From Eledone cirrhosa (lineage: Eukaryota): 64,000 nt of DNA. Made by a program: the position numbers and the translations under genes. The DNA is taken from assembly GCA_964016885.1 (NCBI GenBank), contig OZ024742.1, positions 264,492,001-264,556,000 on the forward strand, in the 5' to 3' direction. The notes below the pieces were generated by a model, which worked only from the letters and a program-made list of their open reading frames with translations, had not been told where the DNA came from and did not search any database. Shown here piece by piece: positions 16,465 through 58,830 of this stretch; positions within the stretch are counted from its first letter, which is position 1, and each line of letters opens with the position of its first letter.

Positions 16465-17260
16465 TGAATAACTTTGAAATGTTTTGGCCAGTATTGGCCC
16501 AAGCCATGTCTAACTTAATAGCACCACCTGGCGAAGTCTTTCAATTCAGGATTTGGGCACCATGGCCCATTCGAGAAGAGAATTACTGTTTGCGGAGACA
16601 TATCCGGGTGTGGGTGGTTTGTCCGGGATTACTTGGAGGAATTTGTCCAAAGACTTCTTGAATTTTGTGTGGTCAGTTTCTGTTTTGACGTGTCCTGGTG
16701 TGATGTTGAAGAGAGCAGGGCCGATTGAGGTGAAATAATTGTGCCGTATTGTTGTTATGAGTTGCGATTTAGATTTTTGTATGGGACGGATAGCACGGGG
16801 CCCAAGCCTTGGGTGTATCTTGAAGGCGATGCCAACATCATTTGGGCAGTGATGATGGAACATTTTCCACATCATGCAGATAATATAACGCTCACGGCGA
16901 CGTTGGAGTGAGTAAAGTTTCAGGTTTTCTAGTCGACCCCAGTAGTCAAGGTCTGACGTGCCATCTATCTTTTTCGTGATTGCCCTTTGAGGAGCTTCAA
17001 GTTTCATGATACTTTGTTTCGTGTGGGGAGACCACAATGGACAACAGTATTCAAGGTGTGGTCGGGCAAAAGTAGAGAAGAGAAGGATAATGGTGTGGGA
17101 ATCTCTCGACTGGAAGGTTCTGAGGATCCAGGAACACATTCTGCGGGCCATGTCAACTTTGCTGCTTATATGCGTGGCCCAGCTTATGTTGCTGTCCACG
17201 GTTACTCCCAAGTCTCTGATGTTGTTAGATGCCACGAGAGTTTCCCCGGAGGGAAGGGAG
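16465..17260 (-). mobile_element. CR1/L2-group (Crack/Daphne-like) LINE 3' end
   Basis: ORF 16546-17235: RDLGV..RPHLEYCCPLWSP..LYSLQRRRERY..FKKSLDKFL..PPTPGY. Confidence 0.85.
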
Positions 17261-17262
17261 TA

Positions 17263-17295
<33 letters not shown>

Positions 17296-17301
17296 ATACT
17301 G

Positions 17302-17379
<78 letters not shown>

Positions 17380-17418
17380 TATATATATATATGTATATAT
17401 ATATACATACGTACATAT

Positions 17419-17467
<49 letters not shown>

Positions 17468-17506
17468 TATATATATATATGTATATATATATACATACGT
17501 ACATAT

Positions 17507-17550
<44 letters not shown>

Positions 17551-17556
<6 letters not shown>

Positions 17557-18052
17557 GTTAAAGTGTACATCTACATATGTATACGGAAGTATTAGTATGC
17601 ATATAAATACACACATGTATACATATGTACATGTACTGAGTTTTTCACTAGACACTTTACAGTGAGTGTCAGCTAGTCTGTATGTAACCACACAGACGGA
17701 CCGGGTTTTAGAGTCATACGAGTTTTCAAGGAAACACATTTCCTCTATTCTCCAGAGGGCCAAACAGGAATATTGGACTAGTTTCGATGTTATTACATCT
17801 CATCAGCAATATTTACCCATCTTCCGGCTTCTCTGGAGAATTGTAAAAGTACATATCGTTATATGCTTTTTCTATGAAAATTAGTATGACTCTAAAACCC
17901 GGTCCGTCTGTGTGGTTACATACAGACTAGCTGACACTCACTGTAAAGTGTCTAGTGAAAAACTCAGTACATATACATATGTATACATGTGTGTATTTAT
18001 ATGCATACTAATACTTCCGTACACATATGTAGATGTACACTTTAACTTAATT
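17551..18052. repeat. Long inverted repeat (about 169-bp arms) enclosing a hammerhead
   Basis: 17551-17719 is the reverse complement of 17884-18052 with about 2 mismatches. Confidence 0.92.
17769..17813 (-). ncRNA. Minimal type I hammerhead ribozyme (canonical core)
   Basis: aatattg-CTGATGA-gatgt aata acatc-GAAA-ctag-TC-caatatt. Perfect stems I and II, palindromic CTAG stem III, GUC triplet. Confidence 0.88.
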
Positions 18053-18119
18053 GTTTAAGCGTCAGTCATACAAAAGTGAGTTAGAAGTGAAACGAAATTT
18101 AATTTCGTTTCGTTATTTG

Positions 18120-18123
<4 letters not shown>

Positions 18124-18205
<82 letters not shown>

Positions 18206-18364
18206 CATATATATATATACATATATATATATACATATATATATATACATATATATATATACATATATATATATACATATATATATACATATACATATAT
18301 ATATATACATATATATATATACATATATATATATACATATATATATATACATATATATATATAC

Positions 18365-18435
<71 letters not shown>

Positions 18436-18455
18436 CATGTATACATATATACATT

Positions 18456-18501
<46 letters not shown>

Positions 18502-18563
18502 AATGTATATATGTATACATGTATATATATATATATATGTATGTATATATATATATATATATG

Positions 18564-18638
<75 letters not shown>

Positions 18639-18649
18639 GTATATATATG

Positions 18650-18732
<83 letters not shown>

Positions 18733-18741
18733 GTACGTATG

Positions 18742-18807
<66 letters not shown>

Positions 18808-34702: not shown

Positions 34703-36583
34703 ATCATCATCATCATCATCATCAACGTTTAACGTCCGTGTTCCACGCTTGCATGGGTTTGGACGGGGGTAGTCCCACTTGAGGCAAGAGTGATTGTCTT
34801 GCTCGCATAGGACTGTCTGGTAGGTTTTCTACAGTTGGATGGCCTTCCTAACACCAACCACATTTACAGTGTGGGTCTGGGAGGTTTTTACCGTGTTGCC
34901 TACACGGCCACATTACAGCGTGGACTGTGTGTTTTTTTGTCGTGACACCTACACGATCTCATTTGTTTCGGCCTGGATGGCGCAGCACCAACATAACTTT
35001 ACATAGAATGGGGTGGTGTGGATGGGGTGGGGGTGGTGGGATGGGGTGTATTTTGTTAGAGATGCCTACTGGCTGGAGTAGGTTTTACTATATATTTAGG
35101 TAAGGCGGGTCTTCTCGGTTACGGAGAGGTGTAAGTGTGTAATGTCGGAGTTTATCAGCTCGTCCCAGGTTTTTCTAGGTCTGCCTATTCCGTGACTACC
35201 GTCTATCTTTATTGCCCTGCACTTTGTTATACAGCTATCGACTTTCATGCGCATCACGTGTCCATACCAACGTAGCCTTCTCTCGAGTAAACAACATCTG
35301 ATCCCGCTTATCTCTAATTTTTTCCTTAGTTCGTTTATGCTTTGCCGTTCACGTATATTACTGTTACACATCCAGCGGAGCATGCAAGCTTCGTTCCTCT
35401 CTAGTCTGCGTATATCCTCTGCACACAATGCCCAGGTCTCACTGCCATGCAGCATTGCTGTTCGTATGCAGGCATCGTACAACCTGCTTTTCATTTTTAG
35501 GGAGAACCCTTTAGCAGCTAATAGTGGTATAAGCTCTCTGAACTTTTTCCAACCAGTTCTGACTCTAGCTACAGTACTTTCAGAGCATCCTCCCCCACTG
35601 CTGATTTTATCGCCCAGGTAACGGAAGCTGTCCACTATTTCTATAGAACCCTCTGCGCAATTGAAAGAGCTAGTATTCTGTGGGCACTTGCTGCTACTTA
35701 TTGCACCAGAACACCGGCCACATGTAAAATCTATGTTCTTAGTTAGCTTACCTGTGATCCCACTACATCTTTTATGCACCCATACTTTGCATTTAGGACA
35801 TAAAATGGAGTTTCTACCTACGCCTTTCCTACACACCGAGCACGACCATTTCCCAGAAGGGACCGCCGCCTTGTTTTCTTTCCTACAAACTAGAACTTTA
35901 GTCTTAGCCAGGTTAATTTTAAGTCCTTTTGACTCGAGGCCGTGCTTCCATGTTTGGAATTTTTTCTCTAGCTCGGCCATTGATTCCGCTATGAGTGTCA
36001 GGTCGTCTGCGTATAGGAGTTCCCATGGGCAGCCTGTCTTGAACTCCTCTGTTATAGCCTGAAGGGCAATAATAAATAGTAGGGGGCTGAGAACAGAGCC
36101 CTGATGGACGCCAACTTTTACGCTAAACTCTTCACTATATTCGTTGTTAATTCTAACCTTGCTGACTGTTTCTTTATACATGGCTTGTATAGCCCTCACA
36201 AGCCATTCGTCAACGCCTAGTTTTCTAAGAGCCCACCAGATAATGGAGCGGGGGACTCTGTCGAAGGCTTTCTCCAAGTCGACAAAAGCTAAGTAGAGGG
36301 GTTTACCTTTAGCTAGGAACTTCTCCTGTAGTTGTCGTACTATGAAAAGAGCGTCTGTGGTACTTTTGCCTGACACAAACCCGAACTGCATTTCATCTAG
36401 GTCAATTCTCTCTCTGATTAGTTGCGCTATTACTTTTTCCGTGACCGTCATGACCTGGTCGATTAATTTAATGCCTCTATAGTTACTCCTATCTAGGGCG
36501 TCTCCTTTACCCTTGTAACAGTTAACGATGATGCTGCTATGCCAGTCCTTCGGAACAACCCCATTCTGTACGACTTGGTTAAC
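34703..36583 (-). mobile_element. 5'-truncated RTE-clade LINE with an open RT ORF (35096-36583)
   Basis: NYRGIKL, QFGF, FVDLEKAFDRV, QGSVLSPLLF, YADD, Cys/His finger, FRYLG, LHGSETW, RLRWYGHV. The N-terminal IY run of the listed ORF is microsatellite. Confidence 0.93.
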
Positions 36584-36641
36584 TATATATATATACATAT
36601 ATATATATTTATATATACATATACATACATATATACATATA

Positions 36642-36675
<34 letters not shown>

Positions 36676-36795
36676 TATGTGTGTATCTGTGTATATATAT
36701 GTGTATCTGTATATGTAGGCATATATATGTATATCTGTGTATAAATGTATATATGTTTATACATATGTGTGTATATATGTTTGTATATATATATA

Positions 36796-36847
<52 letters not shown>

Positions 36848-37742
36848 AAGTGGGTGGTACGTGCAGCATTGTATAGTTTTATAGATGTATGAAATAATTT
36901 GTGTAGCTTTATGTCAAGAAAGCAAACACCACTTATGATTCAAATGTATTAAATAACCATGAAATCACATTTCATGTTCCACAATACCCCTTCCAATTCC
37001 ACAGTATTAACAAAAGCACCATTATGTTTCACCTTGACAGTATCACTCTACCTTCCTTCCATGTTTCTTGCATGATTATCTCCACCACTTTAACAACAAC
37101 AGCACCACTTCCCATCTTATCAATACCACCATCACCTACAGCATCAATATATTTCTTTTCACTATCCCACCACTACCACCACCACGCATAGCAATAAAAA
37201 AAATTGTTTCTTGTCAATTTCAAGAATTAATTTCCTTCAGCGAACATAGGTTCCTGAACATTGCCTAATGGAAATAATAGATGTTTGTGCTGTCTTATAT
37301 GGTCTGCAGGTCTGCAACACATCTGCACATGCTATATGGACTTGCATATGCACAGAATAAGAAGCTTTGGGAATCATACAAATACAAATAGAAAAGGAAA
37401 AATATAGGGAGTTAGGCAGACTGGGTGTAGAATAGATAGCAGCATATAGTGCATAATATATGAATAATGTATATGAAAATGCTATATATACATAATGACA
37501 CACACATGAGTATATGTATATGTATAGATAAATTATGTGTATGTATGTTACTGCCTGATTAACACCTTAAATTCAATGTCTTTTTTTTTTGCTGTGTTTA
37601 TGTATGAACCTGTGTATGTATGTGTGTATCTGTATATATATATATATATATAGTGTAGGAGGTGAGTTTTATTGTAGCTACAAATAAAGCAATGCAAATA
37701 TCAGATAAGTAGCACTCCACAGTTTATTGGACTGGAGTATAA

Positions 37743-45180: not shown

Positions 45181-46640
45181 TCATCATCAGCATCATCGTT
45201 TAACTTCCATCTTCCACGCTTGCATGGTTTTGGACGGGAGTTTTCCCACTTGAGGCAAGATTGGTTGTCCTGCTCGTATAGGACTGTCTGGTGGGTTTTC
45301 TACGGCTGGATGCCCTTCCTAACACCAACCACGTTTACAGTGTGGACTGGGAGGTTTTTACCGTATTACCTACATGGCCACATTACAGCATGGACTGTGT
45401 GTTTATTTGTCGTGACACCTACACGTCTGGCGGGTTTTGTACAGCTGGGTGCCCTTCCTAACACCAACCACGTTTACTGTGTGGACTTGGAGGTTTTTAC
45501 CGTGTTACCTACACGGCCACATTACAGTGTGGACTGTGTGTTTTTTGTCGTGACACCTACACGACCTCATTTGTTTCGGACTGGATGTTGTGGTACCAAC
45601 ATAACTTCACATTTAAGGGGGTGGTGTGGATGGGGTGAGGGTAGTGGGACGGGGGTGTGTTTTGTTAGAGATGCCTACTGACTGTAGGTTTCGCTTCGTA
45701 CTTAGGCAAGGCGGGTCTTCTGTATAACTGTGTAGCAGCAAAGATCTCGGTCCAGTGACATTGTCTTGGAGAGGTGTTAGTGTGTGAGGTCAGAATTTAT
45801 CAAGTCGTCCCAGGTTTTTCTGGGTCTGCCTACTCCGTGGCTACCGTCTATTTTTATCGCCCTGCACTTTTTTATACAGCTGTCGTCTTTCATGCGCATC
45901 ACGTGACCGTACCAACGTAGTCTTCTCTCGAGTAAACAACATCTGATCCCTCTTATTCCTAATTTCTCCCTTAGTTTGTCTATGCTTTGCCGTTCACGTA
46001 TATTACTATTACACATCCAGCAGAGCATGCAAGCTTCGTTTCTCTCCAGTCTGCGTATATCCTCTGCACACAATGCCCAAGTCTCACTCCCATGTAACAT
46101 TGCTGTTCGTATGCAGGCATCATAGAGCCTGCCTTTCATTTTTAGAGAGAACCCTTTAGCGGCCAATAGTGGTATAAGCTCTCTGAACTTTTTCCATCCC
46201 GTTCTGACTCTAGCTACTGTACTTTCAGAGCACCCTCCCCCACTGCTGATTTTATCACCCAGGTAAAGGAAGGTGTCCACTATTTCTATAGAACCATCTG
46301 TGCAATGGAATGAGCTAGTATTCTGTGGGCACTTGCTGCTACTTATTGCACCAGAGCACCGGCCGCATATAAAATCTATATTCTTAGTTAGCTTACCTGT
46401 GATCCCACTACATCTTTTATGCACCCATACTTTGCATTTGGGACATAAAATGGAGTTTCTGCCTACTCATTTCCTACACACTGAGCATGGCCATTTCCCA
46501 GATGGGACCGGTGCCCTATTTTCCTTCCTACAAACTAGAACTTTAGTCTTAGACAAGTTAACTTTAAGGCCTTTTGATTCTAGGCCATGCTTCCATGTTT
46601 GGAATTTCTTCTCTAGTTCAGCAATTGATTCAGCTGTGAG
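45181..46640 (-). mobile_element. 5'-truncated RTE-clade LINE with duplicated 3' UTR segment
   Basis: Same family as 34703-36583; the UTR block ccttcctaacaccaacc...gtcgtgacacctacacg occurs twice. Confidence 0.9.
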
Positions 46641-46642
46641 CG

Positions 46643-46846
<204 letters not shown>

Positions 46847-46870
46847 TATATACATATATATATATATACA

Positions 46871-49800
46871 TATATATGTGAATATAGACATAGAATATTC
46901 GAAAATATTCTGTATGTTTATAGTAAACATTTTGAAGACCTAATCGCTATAGAATAGAATACGTCACGTATTACAATTAGATTCTCGATAAAAGCAAGGG
47001 AAGTAATCTACGCGTTTCATTCTTGTTAGAATTCATCAGGACTACATATCCAGTGCTTTTATCGAGAATGACACAGCTAGAGACTTATAGAATACTTAGC
47101 TGTGTACAGGAACTGGTTTGAAAGAGCGGTTGCCGGTCCGGCAGAAATTAGAAATTGGAATAAATGCTCTGAAATAGCGATATATATGTGAATATAGACA
47201 TAGAATATTCGAAAATATTCTGTATGTTTATAGTAAACATTTTGAAGACCTAATCGCTATAGAATAGAATACGTCACGTATTACAATTAGATTCTCGATA
47301 AAAGCAAGGGAAGTAATCTACGCGTTTCATTCTTGTTAGAATTCATCAGGACTACATATCCAGTGCTTTTATCGAGAATGACACAGCTAGAGACTTATAG
47401 AATACTTAGCTGTGTACAGGAACTGGTTTGAAAGAGCGGTTGCCGGTCCGGCAGAAATTAGAAATTGGAATAAATGCTCTGAAATAGCGATATATATGTG
47501 AATATAGACATAGAATATTCGAAAATATTCTGTATGTTTATAGTAAACATTTTGAAGACCTAATCGCTATAGAATAGAATACGTCACGTATTACAATTAG
47601 ATTCTCGATAAAAGCAAGGGAAGTAATCTACGCGTTTCATTCTTGTTAGAATTCATCAGGACTACATATCCAGTGCTTTTATCGAGAAAGACACAGCTAG
47701 AGACTTATAGAATACTTAGCTGTGTACAGGAACTGGTTTGAAAGAGCGGTTGCCGGTCCGGCAGAAATTAGAAATTGGAATAAATGCTCTGAAATAGCGA
47801 TATATATGTGAATATAGACATAGAATATTCGAAAATATTCTGTATGTTTATAGTAAACATTTTGAAGACCTAATCGCTATAGAATAGAATACGTCACGTA
47901 TTACAATTAGATTCTCGATAAAAGCAAGGGAAGTAATCTACGCGTTTCATTCTTGTTAGAATTCATCAGGACTACATATCCAGTGCTTTTATCGAGAATG
48001 ACACAGCTAGAGACTTATAGAATACTTAGCTGTGTACAGGAACTGGTTTGAAAGAGCGGTTGCCGGTCCGGCAGAAATTAGAAATTGGAATAAATGCTCT
48101 GAAATAGCGATATATATGTGAATATAGACATAGAATATTCGAAAATATTCTGTATGTTTATAGTAAACATTTTGAAGACCTAATCGCTATAGAATAGAAT
48201 ACGTCACGTATTACAATTAGATTCTCGATAAAAGCAAGGGAAGTAATCTACGCGTTTCATTCTTGTTAGAATTCATCAGGACTACATATCCAGTGCTTTT
48301 ATCGAGAATGACACAGCTAGAGACTTATAGAATACTTAGCTGTGTACAGGAACTGGTTTGAAAGAGCGGTTGCCGGTCCGGCAGAAATTAGAAATTGGAA
48401 TAAATGCTCTGAAATAGCGATATATATGTGAATATAGACATAGAATATTCGAAAATATTCTGTATGTTTATAGTAAACATTTTGAAGACCTAATCGCTAT
48501 AGAATAGAATACGTCACGTATTACAATTAGATTCTCGATAAAAGCAAGGGAAGTAATCTACGCGTTTCATTCTTGTTAGAATTCATCAGGACTACATATC
48601 CAGTGCTTTTATCGAGAATGACACAGCTAGAGACTTATAGAATACTTAGCTGTGTACAGGAACTGGTTTGAAAGAGCGGTTGCCGGTCCGGCAGAAATTA
48701 GAAATTGGAATAAATGCTCTGAAATAGCGATATATATGTGAATATAGACATAGAATATTCGAAAATATTCTGTATGTTTATAGTAAACATTTTGAAGACC
48801 TAATCGCTATAGAATAGAATACGTCACGTATTACAATTAGATTCTCGATAAAAGCAAGGGAAGTAATCTACGCGTTTCATTCTTGTTAGAATTCATCAGG
48901 ACTACATATCCAGTGCTTTTATCGAGAATGACACAGCTAGAGACTTATAGAATACTTAGCTGTGTACAGGAACTGGTTTGAAAGAGCGGTTGCCGGTCCG
49001 GCAGAAATTAGAAATTGGAATAAATGCTCTGAAATAGCGATATATATGTGAATATAGACATAGAATATTCGAAAATATTCTGTATGTTTATAGTAAACAT
49101 TTTGAAGACCTAATCGCTATAGAATAGAATACGTCACGTATTACAATTAGATTCTCGATAAAAGCAAGGGAAGTAATCTACGCGTTTCATTCTTGTTAGA
49201 ATTCATCAGGACTACATATCCAGTGCTTTTATCGAGAATGACACAGCTAGAGACTTATAGAATACTTAGCTGTGTACAGGAACTGGTTTGAAAGAGCGGT
49301 TGCCGGTCCGGCAGAAATTAGAAATTGGAATAAATGCTCTGAAATAGCGATATATATGTGAATATAGACATAGAATATTCGAAAATATTCTGTATGTTTA
49401 TAGTAAACATTTTGAAGACCTAATCGCTATAGAATAGAATACGTCACGTATTACAATTAGATTCTCGATAAAAGCAAGGGAAGTAATCTACGCGTTTCAT
49501 TCTTGTTAGAATTCATCAGGACTACATATCCAGTGCTTTTATCGAGAATGACACAGCTAGAGACTTATAGAATACTTAGCTGTGTACAGGAACTGGTTTG
49601 AAAGAGCGGTTGCCGGTCCGGCAGAAATTAGAAATTGGAATAAATGCTCTGAAATAGCGATATATATGTGAATATAGACATAGAATATTCGAAAATATTC
49701 TGTATGTTTATAGTAAACATTTTGAAGACCTAATCGCTATAGAATAGAATACGTCACGTATTACAATTAGATTCTCGATAAAAGCAAGGGAAGTAATCTA

Positions 49801-50458
49801 CGCGTTTCATTCTTGTTAGAATTCATCAGGACTACATATCCAGTGCTTTTATCGAGAATGACACAGCTAGAGACTTATAGAATACTTAGCTGTGTACAGG
49901 AACTGGTTTGAAAGAGCGGTTGCCGGTCCGGCAGAAATTAGAAATTGGAATAAATGCTCTGAAATAGCGATATATATGTGAATATAGACATAGAATATTC
50001 GAAAATATTCTGTATGTTTATAGTAAACATTTTGAAGACCTAATCGCTATAGAATAGAATACGTCACGTATTACAATTAGATTCTCGATAAAAGCAAGGG
50101 AAGTAATCTACGCGTTTCATTCTTGTTAGAATTCATCAGGACTACATATCCAGTGCTTTTATCGAGAATGACACAGCTAGAGACTTATAGAATACTTAGC
50201 TGTGTACAGGAACTGGTTTGAAAGAGCGGTTGCCGGTCCGGCAGAAATTAGAAATTGGAATAAATGCTCTGAAATAGCGATATATATGTGAATATAGACA
50301 TAGAATATTCGAAAATATTCTGTATGTTTATAGTAAACATTTTGAAGACCTAATCGCTATAGAATAGAATACGTCACGTATTACAATTAGATTCTCGATA
50401 AAAGCAAGGGAAGTAATCTACGCGTTTCATTCTTGTTAGAATTCATCAGGACTACATA
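46871..50458 (-). mobile_element. 310-bp tandem array (11 full + 1 partial unit) with one hammerhead per unit; non-LTR retrozyme-like
   Basis: Units start at 46871+310n; the only variant I saw is at 47689. Each unit has minus-strand gtagtc-CTGATGA-attct aaca agaat-GAAA-cgcg-TA-gattac. Confidence 0.9.
47003..47045 (-). ncRNA. Minimal type I hammerhead ribozyme (first of 12, repeated every 310 bp to 50413-50455)
   Basis: Stem I gtagtc/gattac, stem II attct/agaat, palindromic CGCG stem III, GUA triplet; outer 14-bp stem 46983-46996 / 47054-47067. Confidence 0.9.
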
Positions 50459-50790
50459 CATCATCATCGTTTAACATCAGTGTTCCACGCTTGCATGGGT
50501 TTGGATGGGAGTTTTACCACCTGAGGCAAGAGTGATTGTCTTGCTCGCATAGGACTGTCTGGCGAGTTTTCTACAGCTGGATGCCCTTCCTAACACCAAC
50601 CACATTTACAGTGTGGGGCTGGGAGGTTTTTACCGTGTTGCCTACATGGCCACATTACAGCGTGGACTGTGTGTTTTTTTGTCGTGACACCTACACGATC
50701 TCATTTGTTTCGGCCTGGATGTTGTGGCACCAACATAAGTTTACATTGAAAGGGGCGGTGTGGATGGGGTGGGGGTGGTGGGACGGGGGT
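50459..50790 (-). mobile_element. RTE LINE 3' UTR fragment
   Basis: (CAT)n tail and UTR matching 34703-35050. Confidence 0.85.
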
Positions 50791-50795
50791 GTATA

Positions 50796-50871
<76 letters not shown>

Positions 50872-51150
50872 CAGTGCATCTTCGCTTATCCGGATATCGC
50901 TTTTCCGAAATTCAATTTACCGGATGGCTATTTCTATACTACCTCCGGATGAGGAGGACTTGATTTCGACAGACAGACAGTTCCGGGCACCATTTCTTCC
51001 AGCGAACGTTACGTCACTTATTCAGCCAATGGACCAGGGAGTTTTGGAGACACTAAAGCGGATTTACCGAAAACAATTGCTGCAGGATTTAATCGGAAAA
51101 GGGGCGCGAAAACAATCTTCTATTTATTCATTTTTAAAAAAGTACTAACT
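50872..51150 (+). mobile_element. pogo/Tigger transposon fragment
   Basis: TA|CAGTG terminus; FLPANVTSLIQPMDQGVLETLKRIYRK is a typical pogo DDE motif. Confidence 0.85.
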
Positions 51151-56791: not shown

Positions 56792-58830
56792 TCATCATCA
56801 TCATCATCATTATCATCGTTTAACGTCCATATTCCACGCTTGCATGGGTTTGGACGGGTGTTTTCCCACTTGTCTTGTTCGCATAGGACTGTCTGGCGGG
56901 TTTTCTACGGCTGGATGCCCTTCCTAACACCAACCACATTTACAGTGTGGAACTGGGAGGTTTTTACCGTGTTACCTACACGGCCACATTACAGCGTGGA
57001 CTGTGTGTTTTTTTGTCGTGACACCTACACGACCTCATTTGTTTCGGGCTGGATGTTGTGGTACCAACATAACTTTACATTGAAAGGGGTGGTGTGAATG
57101 GGGTGGGGGTAGTGGGACGGGGGTGTATTTTGTTAGAGGTGCCTACTGACTGTAGTACGTTTCACTTTGTACTTGGGTAAGGCGGATCTTCTCTATTACT
57201 GTGTAGCGCCAAAGCTCTCGGTCCAGTGACATTGTCTTGGAGAGGTATAAGTGTGTGAGGTCAGAATTTATCAAGTCGTCCCAGGTTTTTCTGGGTCTGC
57301 CTACTCCGTGGCTACCGTCTATTTTTATTGCCTTGCACTTTTTTATACAGCTGTCGTGTTTCATGCTCATCACGTGACCATACCAACGTAGCCTTCTCTC
57401 GAGTAAACAACATCTGATCCCTCTTATTTCTAATTTTTCCCTTAGCTCGCTTATGCTTTGCCGTTCATGTATATTACTATTACACCTGATCCCTCTTATT
57501 TCTAATTTTTCCCTTAGCTCGCTTATGCTTTGCCATTCACGTATATTACTATTACACATCCAGCGGAGCATGCAAGCTTCATTCCTCTCCAGTCCGCGTA
57601 TATCCTCTGCACAAAATGCCCAGGTCTCACTGCCATGCAACATTGCTGTTCGTATGCAGGCATCATACAGCCTGCCTTTCATTTTTAGGGAGAACTCTTT
57701 AGCAGCTAATAGTGGTATAAGCTCTCTGAACTTTTTCCATCCAGTTCTGACTCTAGCTACTGTACTTTCAGAGCACCCTCCCCCACTGCTGATTTTGTCA
57801 CCCAGGTAACGGAAGCTGTCCACTATTTCTATAGAACCATCTGTGCAATGGAATGGGCTAGTATTCTGTGGGCACTTGCTGCTACTTATTGCACCAGAGC
57901 ACCGGCCACATATAAAATGTGTTCTTAGTTAGCTTACCTGTGATCCCACTACATCTTTTATGCACCCATACTTTGCATTTGGGACATAAAATGGAGTTTC
58001 TACCTACTCGTTTCCTACACACTGAGCATGGCCATTTCCCGGATGGGACCGGCGCCCTATTTTCCTTCCTACAAACTAGAACTTTAGTCTTAGACAGGTT
58101 AATTTTAAGGCCTTTTGATTCTAGGCCATGCTTCCATGTTTGGAATTTCTTCTCTAGTTTGGCCATTGATTCAGCTATGAGTGTTAGATCATCTGCATAT
58201 AGGAGTTCCCATGGGCAGCCGGTCTTGAACACCACTGTTATAGCCTGAAGGTCGATAATAAATAGTAGGGGGCTAAGAACGGAGCCCTGATGAACACCAA
58301 CTTTTACGCTAAACTCTTCACTATATTCGTTGTTAATTCTAACCTTGCTGACTGTTTCTTTATACATGGCTTGTATAGCTCTCACAAGCCATTCATCAAC
58401 ACCTAGTTTTCTAAGAGCCCACCAGATAATGGAACGGGGGACTCTGTCGAAGGGTTTCTCCAAGTCGACAAAAGCTAAGTATAGGGGTTTACTTTTAGCT
58501 AGGTACTTCTCCTGTAGTTGTCGTACAATGAAAAGAGCGTCTGTGGTACTTTTGCCTGACACAAACCCGAACTTCATTTCATCTAGATCAATTCTCTCTC
58601 TGATTAGTTGCGCTATTACTTTTTCTGTGACCTTCATGACCTGGTCGATTAATTTAATGCCTCTATAGTTACTCCTACCTAGGCATCTCCTTTACCCTTG
58701 GAGCAGTTAATGATGATGCTGCTATGCCAGTCCTTCGGAACAACCCCATTCTGTATGACTTGGTTTACTATCCGGGTGACCATGGTGTGTCCCATCGTTC
58801 CAGAAGCTTTCAGCATTTGAATATTGTTAA
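56792..58830 (-). mobile_element. 5'-truncated RTE-clade LINE, frameshifted, with small internal duplication
   Basis: ORFs 57143-57823, 57882-58637 (YADD) and 58679-; duplicated NSNI..LEIRGIRC block. Confidence 0.92.

What the first reader, a model, noticed from the sequence alone, without database searches (positions are those of the whole stretch)
17551..18052. Canonical GUC hammerhead at the apex of a 500-bp foldback
Seen: 169-bp near-perfect inverted arms enclose a 164-bp loop that contains an inner stem (attctccagag/ctctggagaat) and a perfect minimal hammerhead. The left arm starts exactly at a (TA)n tract. Inference: a compact non-coding mobile unit or inverted pLTR. A transcript would form long dsRNA topped by a ribozyme, a potential ADAR or Dicer substrate.
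Basis: partly seen in the sequence, partly recalled or inferred. Interest (0 to 1): 0.75.

Follow-up and report, generated by a model that had tools for sequence, protein, structure and literature searches.

The report
Penelope-style two-armed hammerhead retrozyme insertion
The foldback is one cut-short copy of a very common 469-base non-coding repeat that carries a hammerhead ribozyme motif, and its mirror-image arms were likely made when a Penelope-type retrotransposon enzyme copied one RNA, probably a circle, from two fixed starting points into a TA repeat, so it is a new family of a known genomic parasite with an unusually clear record of how it moves.

Summary
The locus (17551-18126) is one truncated insertion of a 469-bp non-coding tandem monomer with a type I hammerhead (1386 exact core copies; about 3000 exact end-to-TA junctions genome-wide). 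The arms are two head-to-head partial copies of the monomer whose outer ends lie at two fixed sites 74 nt apart; the inner junction differs at every locus. In 83 inverted loci with both ends at these sites, one arm used the short and the other the long site; none used the same site twice. Coding GIY-YIG Penelope-like elements in this genome show the same footprint. Units and both arms of a locus share one haplotype (586 of 591 sites), and variants fixed across a locus are A-to-G rich on the ribozyme strand (20 of 55, against 32 of 349), which fits a circular, possibly edited, template but also selection on RNA structure. This copy holds a single hammerhead with a 2-bp helix III and is probably dead. 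Verdict: new non-LTR retrozyme family, Penelope-mobilised. The scan reached similar readings for other families in this genome. No RNA evidence obtained.

The parts
17263..17550 (.). Left (TA)n-rich target tract
   Evidence: most family ends abut (TA)n
17551..17886 (-). Arm 1, 336 bp: monomer positions m359 through the hammerhead to m225 (m1 = first base after the GUC site); outer end at the short start site
   Evidence: 99% identical to a natural monomer of L005
17756..17828 (-). Type I hammerhead with extended helix I (core 17769-17813; predicted cleavage between 17776 and 17775; palindromic helix III)
   Evidence: self-pairing of two helix III palindromes 6 bp, -6.2 kcal/mol
17747..17841 (-). 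Inner stem (17747-17757 with 17831-17841) closing the hammerhead domain; part of the monomer's own fold
   Evidence: two pairs at its hammerhead-side end change on both sides between subfamilies
17875..17886 (.). Head-to-head junction of the arms, 12-nt imperfect overlap
   Evidence: locus L002 uses the mirror junction (m48/m365)
17875..18126 (+). Arm 2, 252 bp: monomer m48 to m299; outer end at the long start site
18053..18126 (+). 74-bp one-sided tail between the two start sites, with a 13-pair hairpin at 18086-18114 followed by a T run
18127..18807 (.). Right (TA)n-rich target tract; a target duplication cannot be read in it

Best explanation
The locus is one truncated copy of a 469-bp non-coding hammerhead repeat (a non-LTR retrozyme family) that was likely inserted by the reverse transcriptase-endonuclease of a Penelope-like element. 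Shown: tandem monomer, two fixed outer ends 74 nt apart, head-to-head arms with one short and one long end, random inner junctions, TA targets, 9-16-bp target duplications, one haplotype per locus. Inferred: the enzyme, probably a dimer bound at the tail hairpin, nicks both strands of a (TA)n target; one strand primes reverse transcription at m225-231 and the other at m295-299 of the same RNA; both cDNAs stop at random and are joined by short microhomology, which gives the foldback. Inferred, about 0.6: the template is a circular monomer read round more than once. Inferred, about 0.65: the enzyme donor is one of the genome's TA-targeting elements with a CX2-5CxxC linker (Neptune/Nematis type). 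In tandem arrays two hammerheads would pair through the ACUAGU palindrome and cut out monomers; this copy has one hammerhead, lacks m300-358 and is predicted to be dead on arrival.
For: 1386 exact core copies in arrays of 469-bp period; 2015 long-end and 986 exact short-end junctions to TA. End pairing: 30 of 30 hammerhead-selected inverted loci with both ends at start sites are short+long; 15 of 24 long-anchored loci have a short partner, 0 a long one; 38 of 60 short-anchored loci have a long partner, 0 a short one. 93 inner ends are uniform on the monomer (KS p 0.85), 1 within 3 nt of the cleavage site against 1.4 expected. Target duplications of 9-16 bp at six non-pure-TA sites. Three families of coding RT + GIY-YIG elements show two ends about 40-63 nt apart and short+long inverted copies in TA. 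L068 joins a long-end retrozyme arm directly to the RT-endonuclease half of such an element, which ends at its own short site. Arms concordant at 586 of 591 polymorphic positions against 16080 of 21045 between loci; units within an arm differ by 0.7%, between loci by 2.5%. Monomer folds at z -11. PMC8557442 describes inverted 5'-truncated copies, a one-sided tail and (TA)n bias; PMC11167929 shows two internal start sites, extension of both strands and a predicted dimer.
Against: No coding element with this monomer as its terminal repeat was found: 0 of 50 GIY-YIG loci (of 10597 first-look candidates), and 1 of 152 family loci directly joined to a coding element. In L068 the coding part is decayed (a stop and frameshifts, at best 95% to the 50 loci) while the retrozyme part is young, so a later deletion could explain the join. 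L021 has long ends on both sides inside a larger foldback that includes its flanks, and chimeric L027 pairs a long end with what looks like another family's long end. The 74-nt tail is longer than the 30-40 nt in print. For the circle: L064 and L094 share a mixed pattern at m25 and L094 mixes haplotypes; long arrays L061 and L098 show higher-order patterns of DNA-level expansion; the anole enzyme uses uncleaved RNA in vitro (PMC11167929). PMC11167929 saw no strand difference in start site in vitro. No expression, cleavage or circle data.
Confidence: 0.85

Rival explanations
1. Same Penelope-type insertion, but from linear uncleaved multimer transcripts; uniform units come from young homogeneous donors plus gene conversion or local duplication, with no circle.
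For: Mixed units in L094 and the shared m25 pattern; periodic variants in long arrays; cleavage not needed in vitro (PMC11167929); 8 of 9 Xenopus retrozyme dimers did not cleave in vitro (bioRxiv 10.64898/2026.07.22.740005).
Against: 157 variant-locus pairs are fixed in all units while 133 distinct mixed variants (145 pairs) are nearly all single-locus; new variants need a one-unit bottleneck to become fixed; the fixed class is strand-asymmetric (A>G 20, T>C 9; C>T 8, G>A 1), which DNA-level conversion does not predict.
Confidence: 0.35
2. The monomer is the orphaned terminal repeat (pLTR) of a still-present coding Penelope-like element, and such loci are its 5'-truncated ends.
For: Same footprint as coding elements; retrozymes derive from pLTRs in Xenopus; only a small part of the GIY-YIG loci was examined.
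Against: Arrays of up to more than 20 uninterrupted units; no shared coding continuation in 152 loci; an about 88% sister subfamily and a 65% relative of about 511 bp are also non-coding tandem units.
Confidence: 0.1
3. The foldback was kept by selection as a dsRNA or ribozyme regulator of this locus (ADAR or Dicer substrate).
For: 169 bp of near-perfect pairing in either transcript.
Against: Inversion is the family's common state (38 of 52 loci); arm divergence here (2 of 169) matches the family mean of 0.8%; no host exon was identified nearby (one search found only transposon domains in 16 frames).
Confidence: 0.04
4. Assembly or chimera artefact, or a MITE-like DNA element with terminal inverted repeats.
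For: Sits in long TA tracts; the locus was not checked against reads.
Against: Dozens of loci obey one end rule with different junctions and target duplications; arm lengths are unrelated (Spearman 0.01); the ends are asymmetric by a fixed tail.
Confidence: 0.02

Closest known systems
Metazoan non-LTR retrozymes (Cervera and de la Pena 2020, PMC7229834; Li, Clavereau and Pollet 2026, bioRxiv 10.64898/2026.07.22.740005)
   Same: Non-coding tandem unit of a few hundred bp, type I hammerhead with palindromic helix III, GC below 50%, target duplications above 4 bp, co-occurrence with Penelope-like elements.
   Different: The passages I read report no head-to-head arms, fixed start sites or tail for retrozymes (PMC7229834 main text has 0 occurrences of 'inverted'). 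Here expression, cleavage and circles are untested, and no parent pLTR was found.
Endonuclease-bearing Penelope-like elements, Neptune/Nematis/Naiad layout (Craig et al. 2021, PMC8557442)
   Same: Partial tandems, inverted 5'-truncated copy, tail at one end only, (TA)n bias.
   Different: No open reading frame; tail 74 nt instead of 30-40; pure monomer arrays.
Poseidon of Anolis carolinensis in vitro (Frangieh et al. 2024, PMC11167929)
   Same: Two internal start sites whose spacing is the tail; both target strands extended; AT-rich target; hammerhead cleavage not marked in insert ends.
   Different: There no strand difference in start site was seen; here the two arms of an insertion use different sites in 83 of 83 scored loci, and both start sites resemble the TA target in their last 2-4 bases.
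L1 twin priming (recalled, not read here)
   Same: Both target strands prime; head-to-head product with a microhomology junction.
   Different: In L1 the second primer lands at a chance internal site and the two pieces do not overlap; here both sites are fixed and the arms overlap widely, with no clustering of inner ends at the other start site.

Membership tests
Non-LTR retrozyme (family level) | Type I hammerhead in each unit | tested here: met
Non-LTR retrozyme (family level) | Head-to-tail tandem units of a few hundred bp | tested here: met
   469-bp period; above the 150-450 bp of PMC7229834, within the 51-972 bp of the 2026 preprint
Non-LTR retrozyme (family level) | Non-coding, GC below 50% | tested here: met
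   longest stop-free stretch 84 aa in an array; GC 36.7%
Non-LTR retrozyme (family level) | Target duplications longer than 4 bp | tested here: met
   9-16 bp at L022, L069, L086, L087, L089, L094; unreadable in pure TA
Non-LTR retrozyme (family level) | No LTR, primer-binding site or polypurine tract | not tested
   no LTR-like layout seen; no tRNA-match search run
Non-LTR retrozyme (family level) | Self-cleavage and circular RNA in vivo | not testable with these tools
   only indirect haplotype evidence
Active retrozyme copy (this locus) | [quoted passage not shown] | tested here: not met
   one hammerhead; m300-358 missing
Autonomous Penelope-like element | RT plus GIY-YIG reading frame | tested here: not met
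Penelope-type insertion footprint | Inverted 5'-truncated copy | tested here: met
   38 of 52 loci
Penelope-type insertion footprint | Tail at one end, set by two internal start sites | tested here: met
Penelope-type insertion footprint | AT-rich or (TA)n target | tested here: met
pLTR of a coding Penelope-like element | Copies flank an RT-endonuclease frame | tested here: inconclusive
   0 of 50 GIY-YIG loci; 1 chimeric join in 152 family loci; genome only sampled
min-HHR of Penelope-like elements (PMC4209133) | No helix III insert, helix II 7-8 bp, helix I 4-5 bp | tested here: not met
   helix I 7 bp, helix II 5 bp, palindromic helix III
MITE | Fixed terminal inverted repeats around a constant interior | tested here: not met
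   arm lengths and junctions differ at every locus

The most novel reading that the evidence does not exclude
A Penelope-type dimer straddles the tail hairpin of one circular retrozyme RNA and copies it by rolling reverse transcription from two obligatorily different start sites, one per target strand; the circle is A-to-I edited first, so RNA edits are written back into every unit of the new insertion and drive the family's sequence evolution.
Probability: 0.25. Interest if true: 0.78.

Novelty: new member of a known kind. Interest (0 to 1): 0.5.

Why it matters
The locus itself is a probably dead copy. The family matters because two proposals in print remain untested: that animal retrozymes are moved by Penelope-like enzymes through circular RNA (PMC7229834), and how Penelope-like elements make tandem and inverted inserts (named as open in PMC8557442). 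Thousands of young copies give a strict short+long end rule, one haplotype per insertion, a chimera with a coding element and a replicated A-to-G skew. These name a 469-nt RNA, two start coordinates and candidate enzymes for a direct in vitro test.

Tried and rejected
Rfam at gathering level: no match in the window; microRNA hits are far below gathering and come from AT-rich hairpins, rejected. Coding partner by similarity: none among 50 GIY-YIG loci; hits were non-coding relatives inserted nearby. Loci picked by the long end but lacking the exact hammerhead core were mostly an about 88% sister subfamily, not coding elements (40 loci). Hammerhead cleavage site as an insert boundary: rejected (1 of 93 ends). 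L1-style end-to-end fit of the two arms: no clustering. ADAR neighbour preference among fixed A>G changes: not significant (UAG 2 of 11, p 0.09). A>G against T>C alone is borderline (p 0.016 loose and 0.08 strict in all loci; 0.3-0.4 in the replicate set alone). Two apparent short-short loci (L210, L223) were pattern hits in unrelated DNA. One search missed the sister subfamily through too narrow a pattern and was redone. No read-level check of the locus or of expression was obtained, so both stay open. A look-up of earlier notes by the loop sequence gave nothing. Literature searches for twin priming with Penelope, Neptune non-autonomous hammerhead, octopus Penelope hammerhead, retrozyme with A-to-I editing and editing footprints in retrotransposon copies listed no paper whose title or abstract opening reports the pairing rule or the skew; these listings were not read further. 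No tree was built, so 'Neptune/Nematis type' rests on the linker motif only.

Full report
Observation. The arms, loop, inner stem and TA boundary are as described: 169-bp arms with two mismatches around a 164-bp loop. The hammerhead reads on the minus strand, with a 7-bp helix I extended by further pairs past a 2-nt bulge, a 5-bp helix II, and a helix III of only two pairs around the palindrome ACUAGU; the GUC site falls between 17776 and 17775. Rfam finds nothing at gathering level and a sub-threshold Hammerhead_HH9 match. Among 11 sequences of the family and its relatives, 92.6% of cells pair, 6 of 16 pairs change on both sides, and the covariation score of 0.33 exceeds all 500 shuffles and all slid controls; the sequences are related, so this is support, not a probability. 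By the definitions in PMC4209133 (passages) it is a canonical-like type I motif expected to work as a dimer; two palindromes pair over 6 bp at -6.2 kcal/mol.

What the unit is. A search of the own genome gave 1152 candidates with near-identical copies and 1386 exact copies of the 38-nt core, reversed control 0. Copies form head-to-tail arrays of 469-bp period. With m1 as the base after the cleavage site, the window holds a minus-strand arm m359 to m225 (17886-17551) and a plus-strand arm m48 to m299 (17875-18126), joined head to head over a 12-nt imperfect overlap. The monomer is non-coding (84 aa longest stop-free stretch, GC 36.7%) and folds far better than shuffles (z -11). A sister subfamily at about 88% identity and a relative of about 511 bp at 65% exist; across 14 representatives of the hammerhead half, 1227 of 1257 cells pair and 5 of 90 pairs change on both sides, on a structure predicted from the same alignment.

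Insertion footprint. Of 58 loci mapped, 6 were dropped (one duplicate, five arrays cut by the fetched stretch). Of 52 left, 38 are inverted. Thirty have both outer ends at the two sites m225-231 and m295-299, and all 30 are one short plus one long; 8 have one end elsewhere, including L021, which has long ends on both sides within a larger foldback that takes in its flanks. Two further sets chosen by one end only agree: 15 of 24 long-anchored loci have a short partner and none a long one; 38 of 60 short-anchored loci have a long partner and none a short one, counted by hand (2 end elsewhere, 3 run out of the stretch, the rest are single-armed or too short). Sixteen loci picked as pairs (L151-L166) were not counted. 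Genome-wide there are 2015 long-end and 986 exact short-end junctions to TA, and 1108 exact read-through copies of the long site. The 93 inner ends are uniform over the monomer, with no excess at the cleavage site. Target duplications of 9-16 bp are readable at six sites.

The likely enzyme. PMC8557442 (passages) lists partial tandems, an inverted 5'-truncated copy, a tail often at one end only and (TA)n bias as Penelope-like features. PMC11167929 (parts 1-3 of 4 read, supplements not seen) shows that the tail is the distance between two internal start sites, that both target strands are cut and extended, and that the protein is predicted to be a dimer. The genome has many GIY-YIG matches, and long RT plus GIY-YIG frames with a CX2-5CxxC linker. 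Three such families end at two sites about 40-63 nt apart in TA and form short+long inverted copies (read by eye). None of 50 GIY-YIG loci has the monomer as terminal repeat. Of 152 family loci, 14 have a coding Penelope-like hit in the stretch; 12 are separated by microsatellite, one (L090) lies between separate copies, and one, L068, is joined directly: a long-end retrozyme arm, a 41-bp inverted piece, then about 2.4 kb of a coding element ending at its short site. That fits one reaction with two RNAs, but the coding part is decayed and a later deletion is not excluded. L027, L073 and L235 are joined to ends of other TA-targeting repeats.

The template. In 36 inverted loci the arms agree at 586 of 591 polymorphic positions against 76% between loci; divergence is 0.7% among tandem units, 0.8% between arms and 2.5% between loci. 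157 variant-locus pairs are fixed in all units, while mixed variants are nearly all confined to one locus. Arms cross the intact cleavage site and often exceed one unit. A circular monomer read round explains this most simply, as proposed in the Discussion of PMC7229834 (section read; other passages). Against it: mixed units in L094, a shared pattern with L064, higher-order patterns in long arrays, and activity on uncleaved RNA in vitro.

A-to-G skew. Rare variants fixed in all units of a locus were A>G on the ribozyme strand in 19 of 51 cases against 22 of 244 single-unit variants, and 11 of 35 after dropping alleles seen in the other subfamily. A replicate set, with the test noted beforehand, gave 9 of 20 (strict 6 of 14) against 10 of 100; all 146 loci gave 20 of 55 against 32 of 349 (p about 1e-6), A>G against T>C p 0.016, A>G against C>T p 0.007; strict 0.0003, 0.08 and 0.02. 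G>A is almost absent from the fixed class (1 of 55 against 60 of 349), so selection on RNA structure clearly acts and could produce part or all of the skew; there is no significant ADAR neighbour preference. I put editing at about 0.35. Earlier notes call the genome cephalopod (unchecked); strong A-to-I editing in that group is recalled, not from a call.

Comparison and verdict. The family meets the testable features of non-LTR retrozymes and works like a Penelope-type insertion; it is not an autonomous element, and this copy fails the two-hammerhead criterion of the 2026 preprint (parts 1-3 of 5 read; its supplements are closed and may list related families). My reading was formed before the look-up of earlier notes, which reach similar conclusions for other families of this genome; they are not independent support. 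The pairing rule, single haplotype and skew were not found in the searches, in a library that lacks most subscription papers. New member of a known kind; interest 0.5.

Noticed in passing
window 46870-50458, minus strand: A second, unrelated hammerhead array: 11.6 units of 310 bp, 99% alike, helix III palindrome ACGCGU, one end in a TA tract, set within RT-fragment sequence.
   Followed up: partly
window 6250 (+), 16109 (-), 18949 (+), 23804 (-), 25353 (+), 38082 (+), 55598 (+), 174 (-): Single hammerhead-like cores of other repeat families; several recur beside TA tracts in fetched loci.
   Followed up: no
window 35096-36913, 45777-46946, 57882-58691, minus strand: RT fragments with a PHD-finger match just after the RT domain; RTE-like by recalled resemblance.
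   Followed up: no
window 16546-17262, minus strand: Stop-free stretch resembling the C-terminal end of a CR1/Jockey-type RT by recall; no Pfam match.
   Followed up: partly
L068 2753-6520: Chimeric insertion of retrozyme arms and the coding half of a GIY-YIG Penelope-like element.
   Followed up: partly
L027, L073, L235: Retrozyme arms joined directly to the ends of other TA-targeting repeats, as if templates were switched between families.
   Followed up: partly
L131 3809-6622, L132 1488-4019, L133 775-4062: Long stop-free RT plus GIY-YIG-type frames (844-1096 aa); the L131 family shows no canonical hammerhead in my pattern scan.
   Followed up: partly
G000:C1 from 95.62 Mb (L095, L098): A monomer array of more than 25 kb with higher-order variant patterns, i.e. 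the retrozyme turning into satellite DNA.
   Followed up: partly
L021 1-3197: Inversion extends about 700 bp into both flanks, which hold another hammerhead repeat; both retrozyme arms end at the long site.
   Followed up: partly
L071 and L072: Identical insertion with identical junction 17.7 kb apart: a local duplication or assembly duplicate.
   Followed up: no
window 50750-51148: DDE_1 transposase fragment.
   Followed up: no
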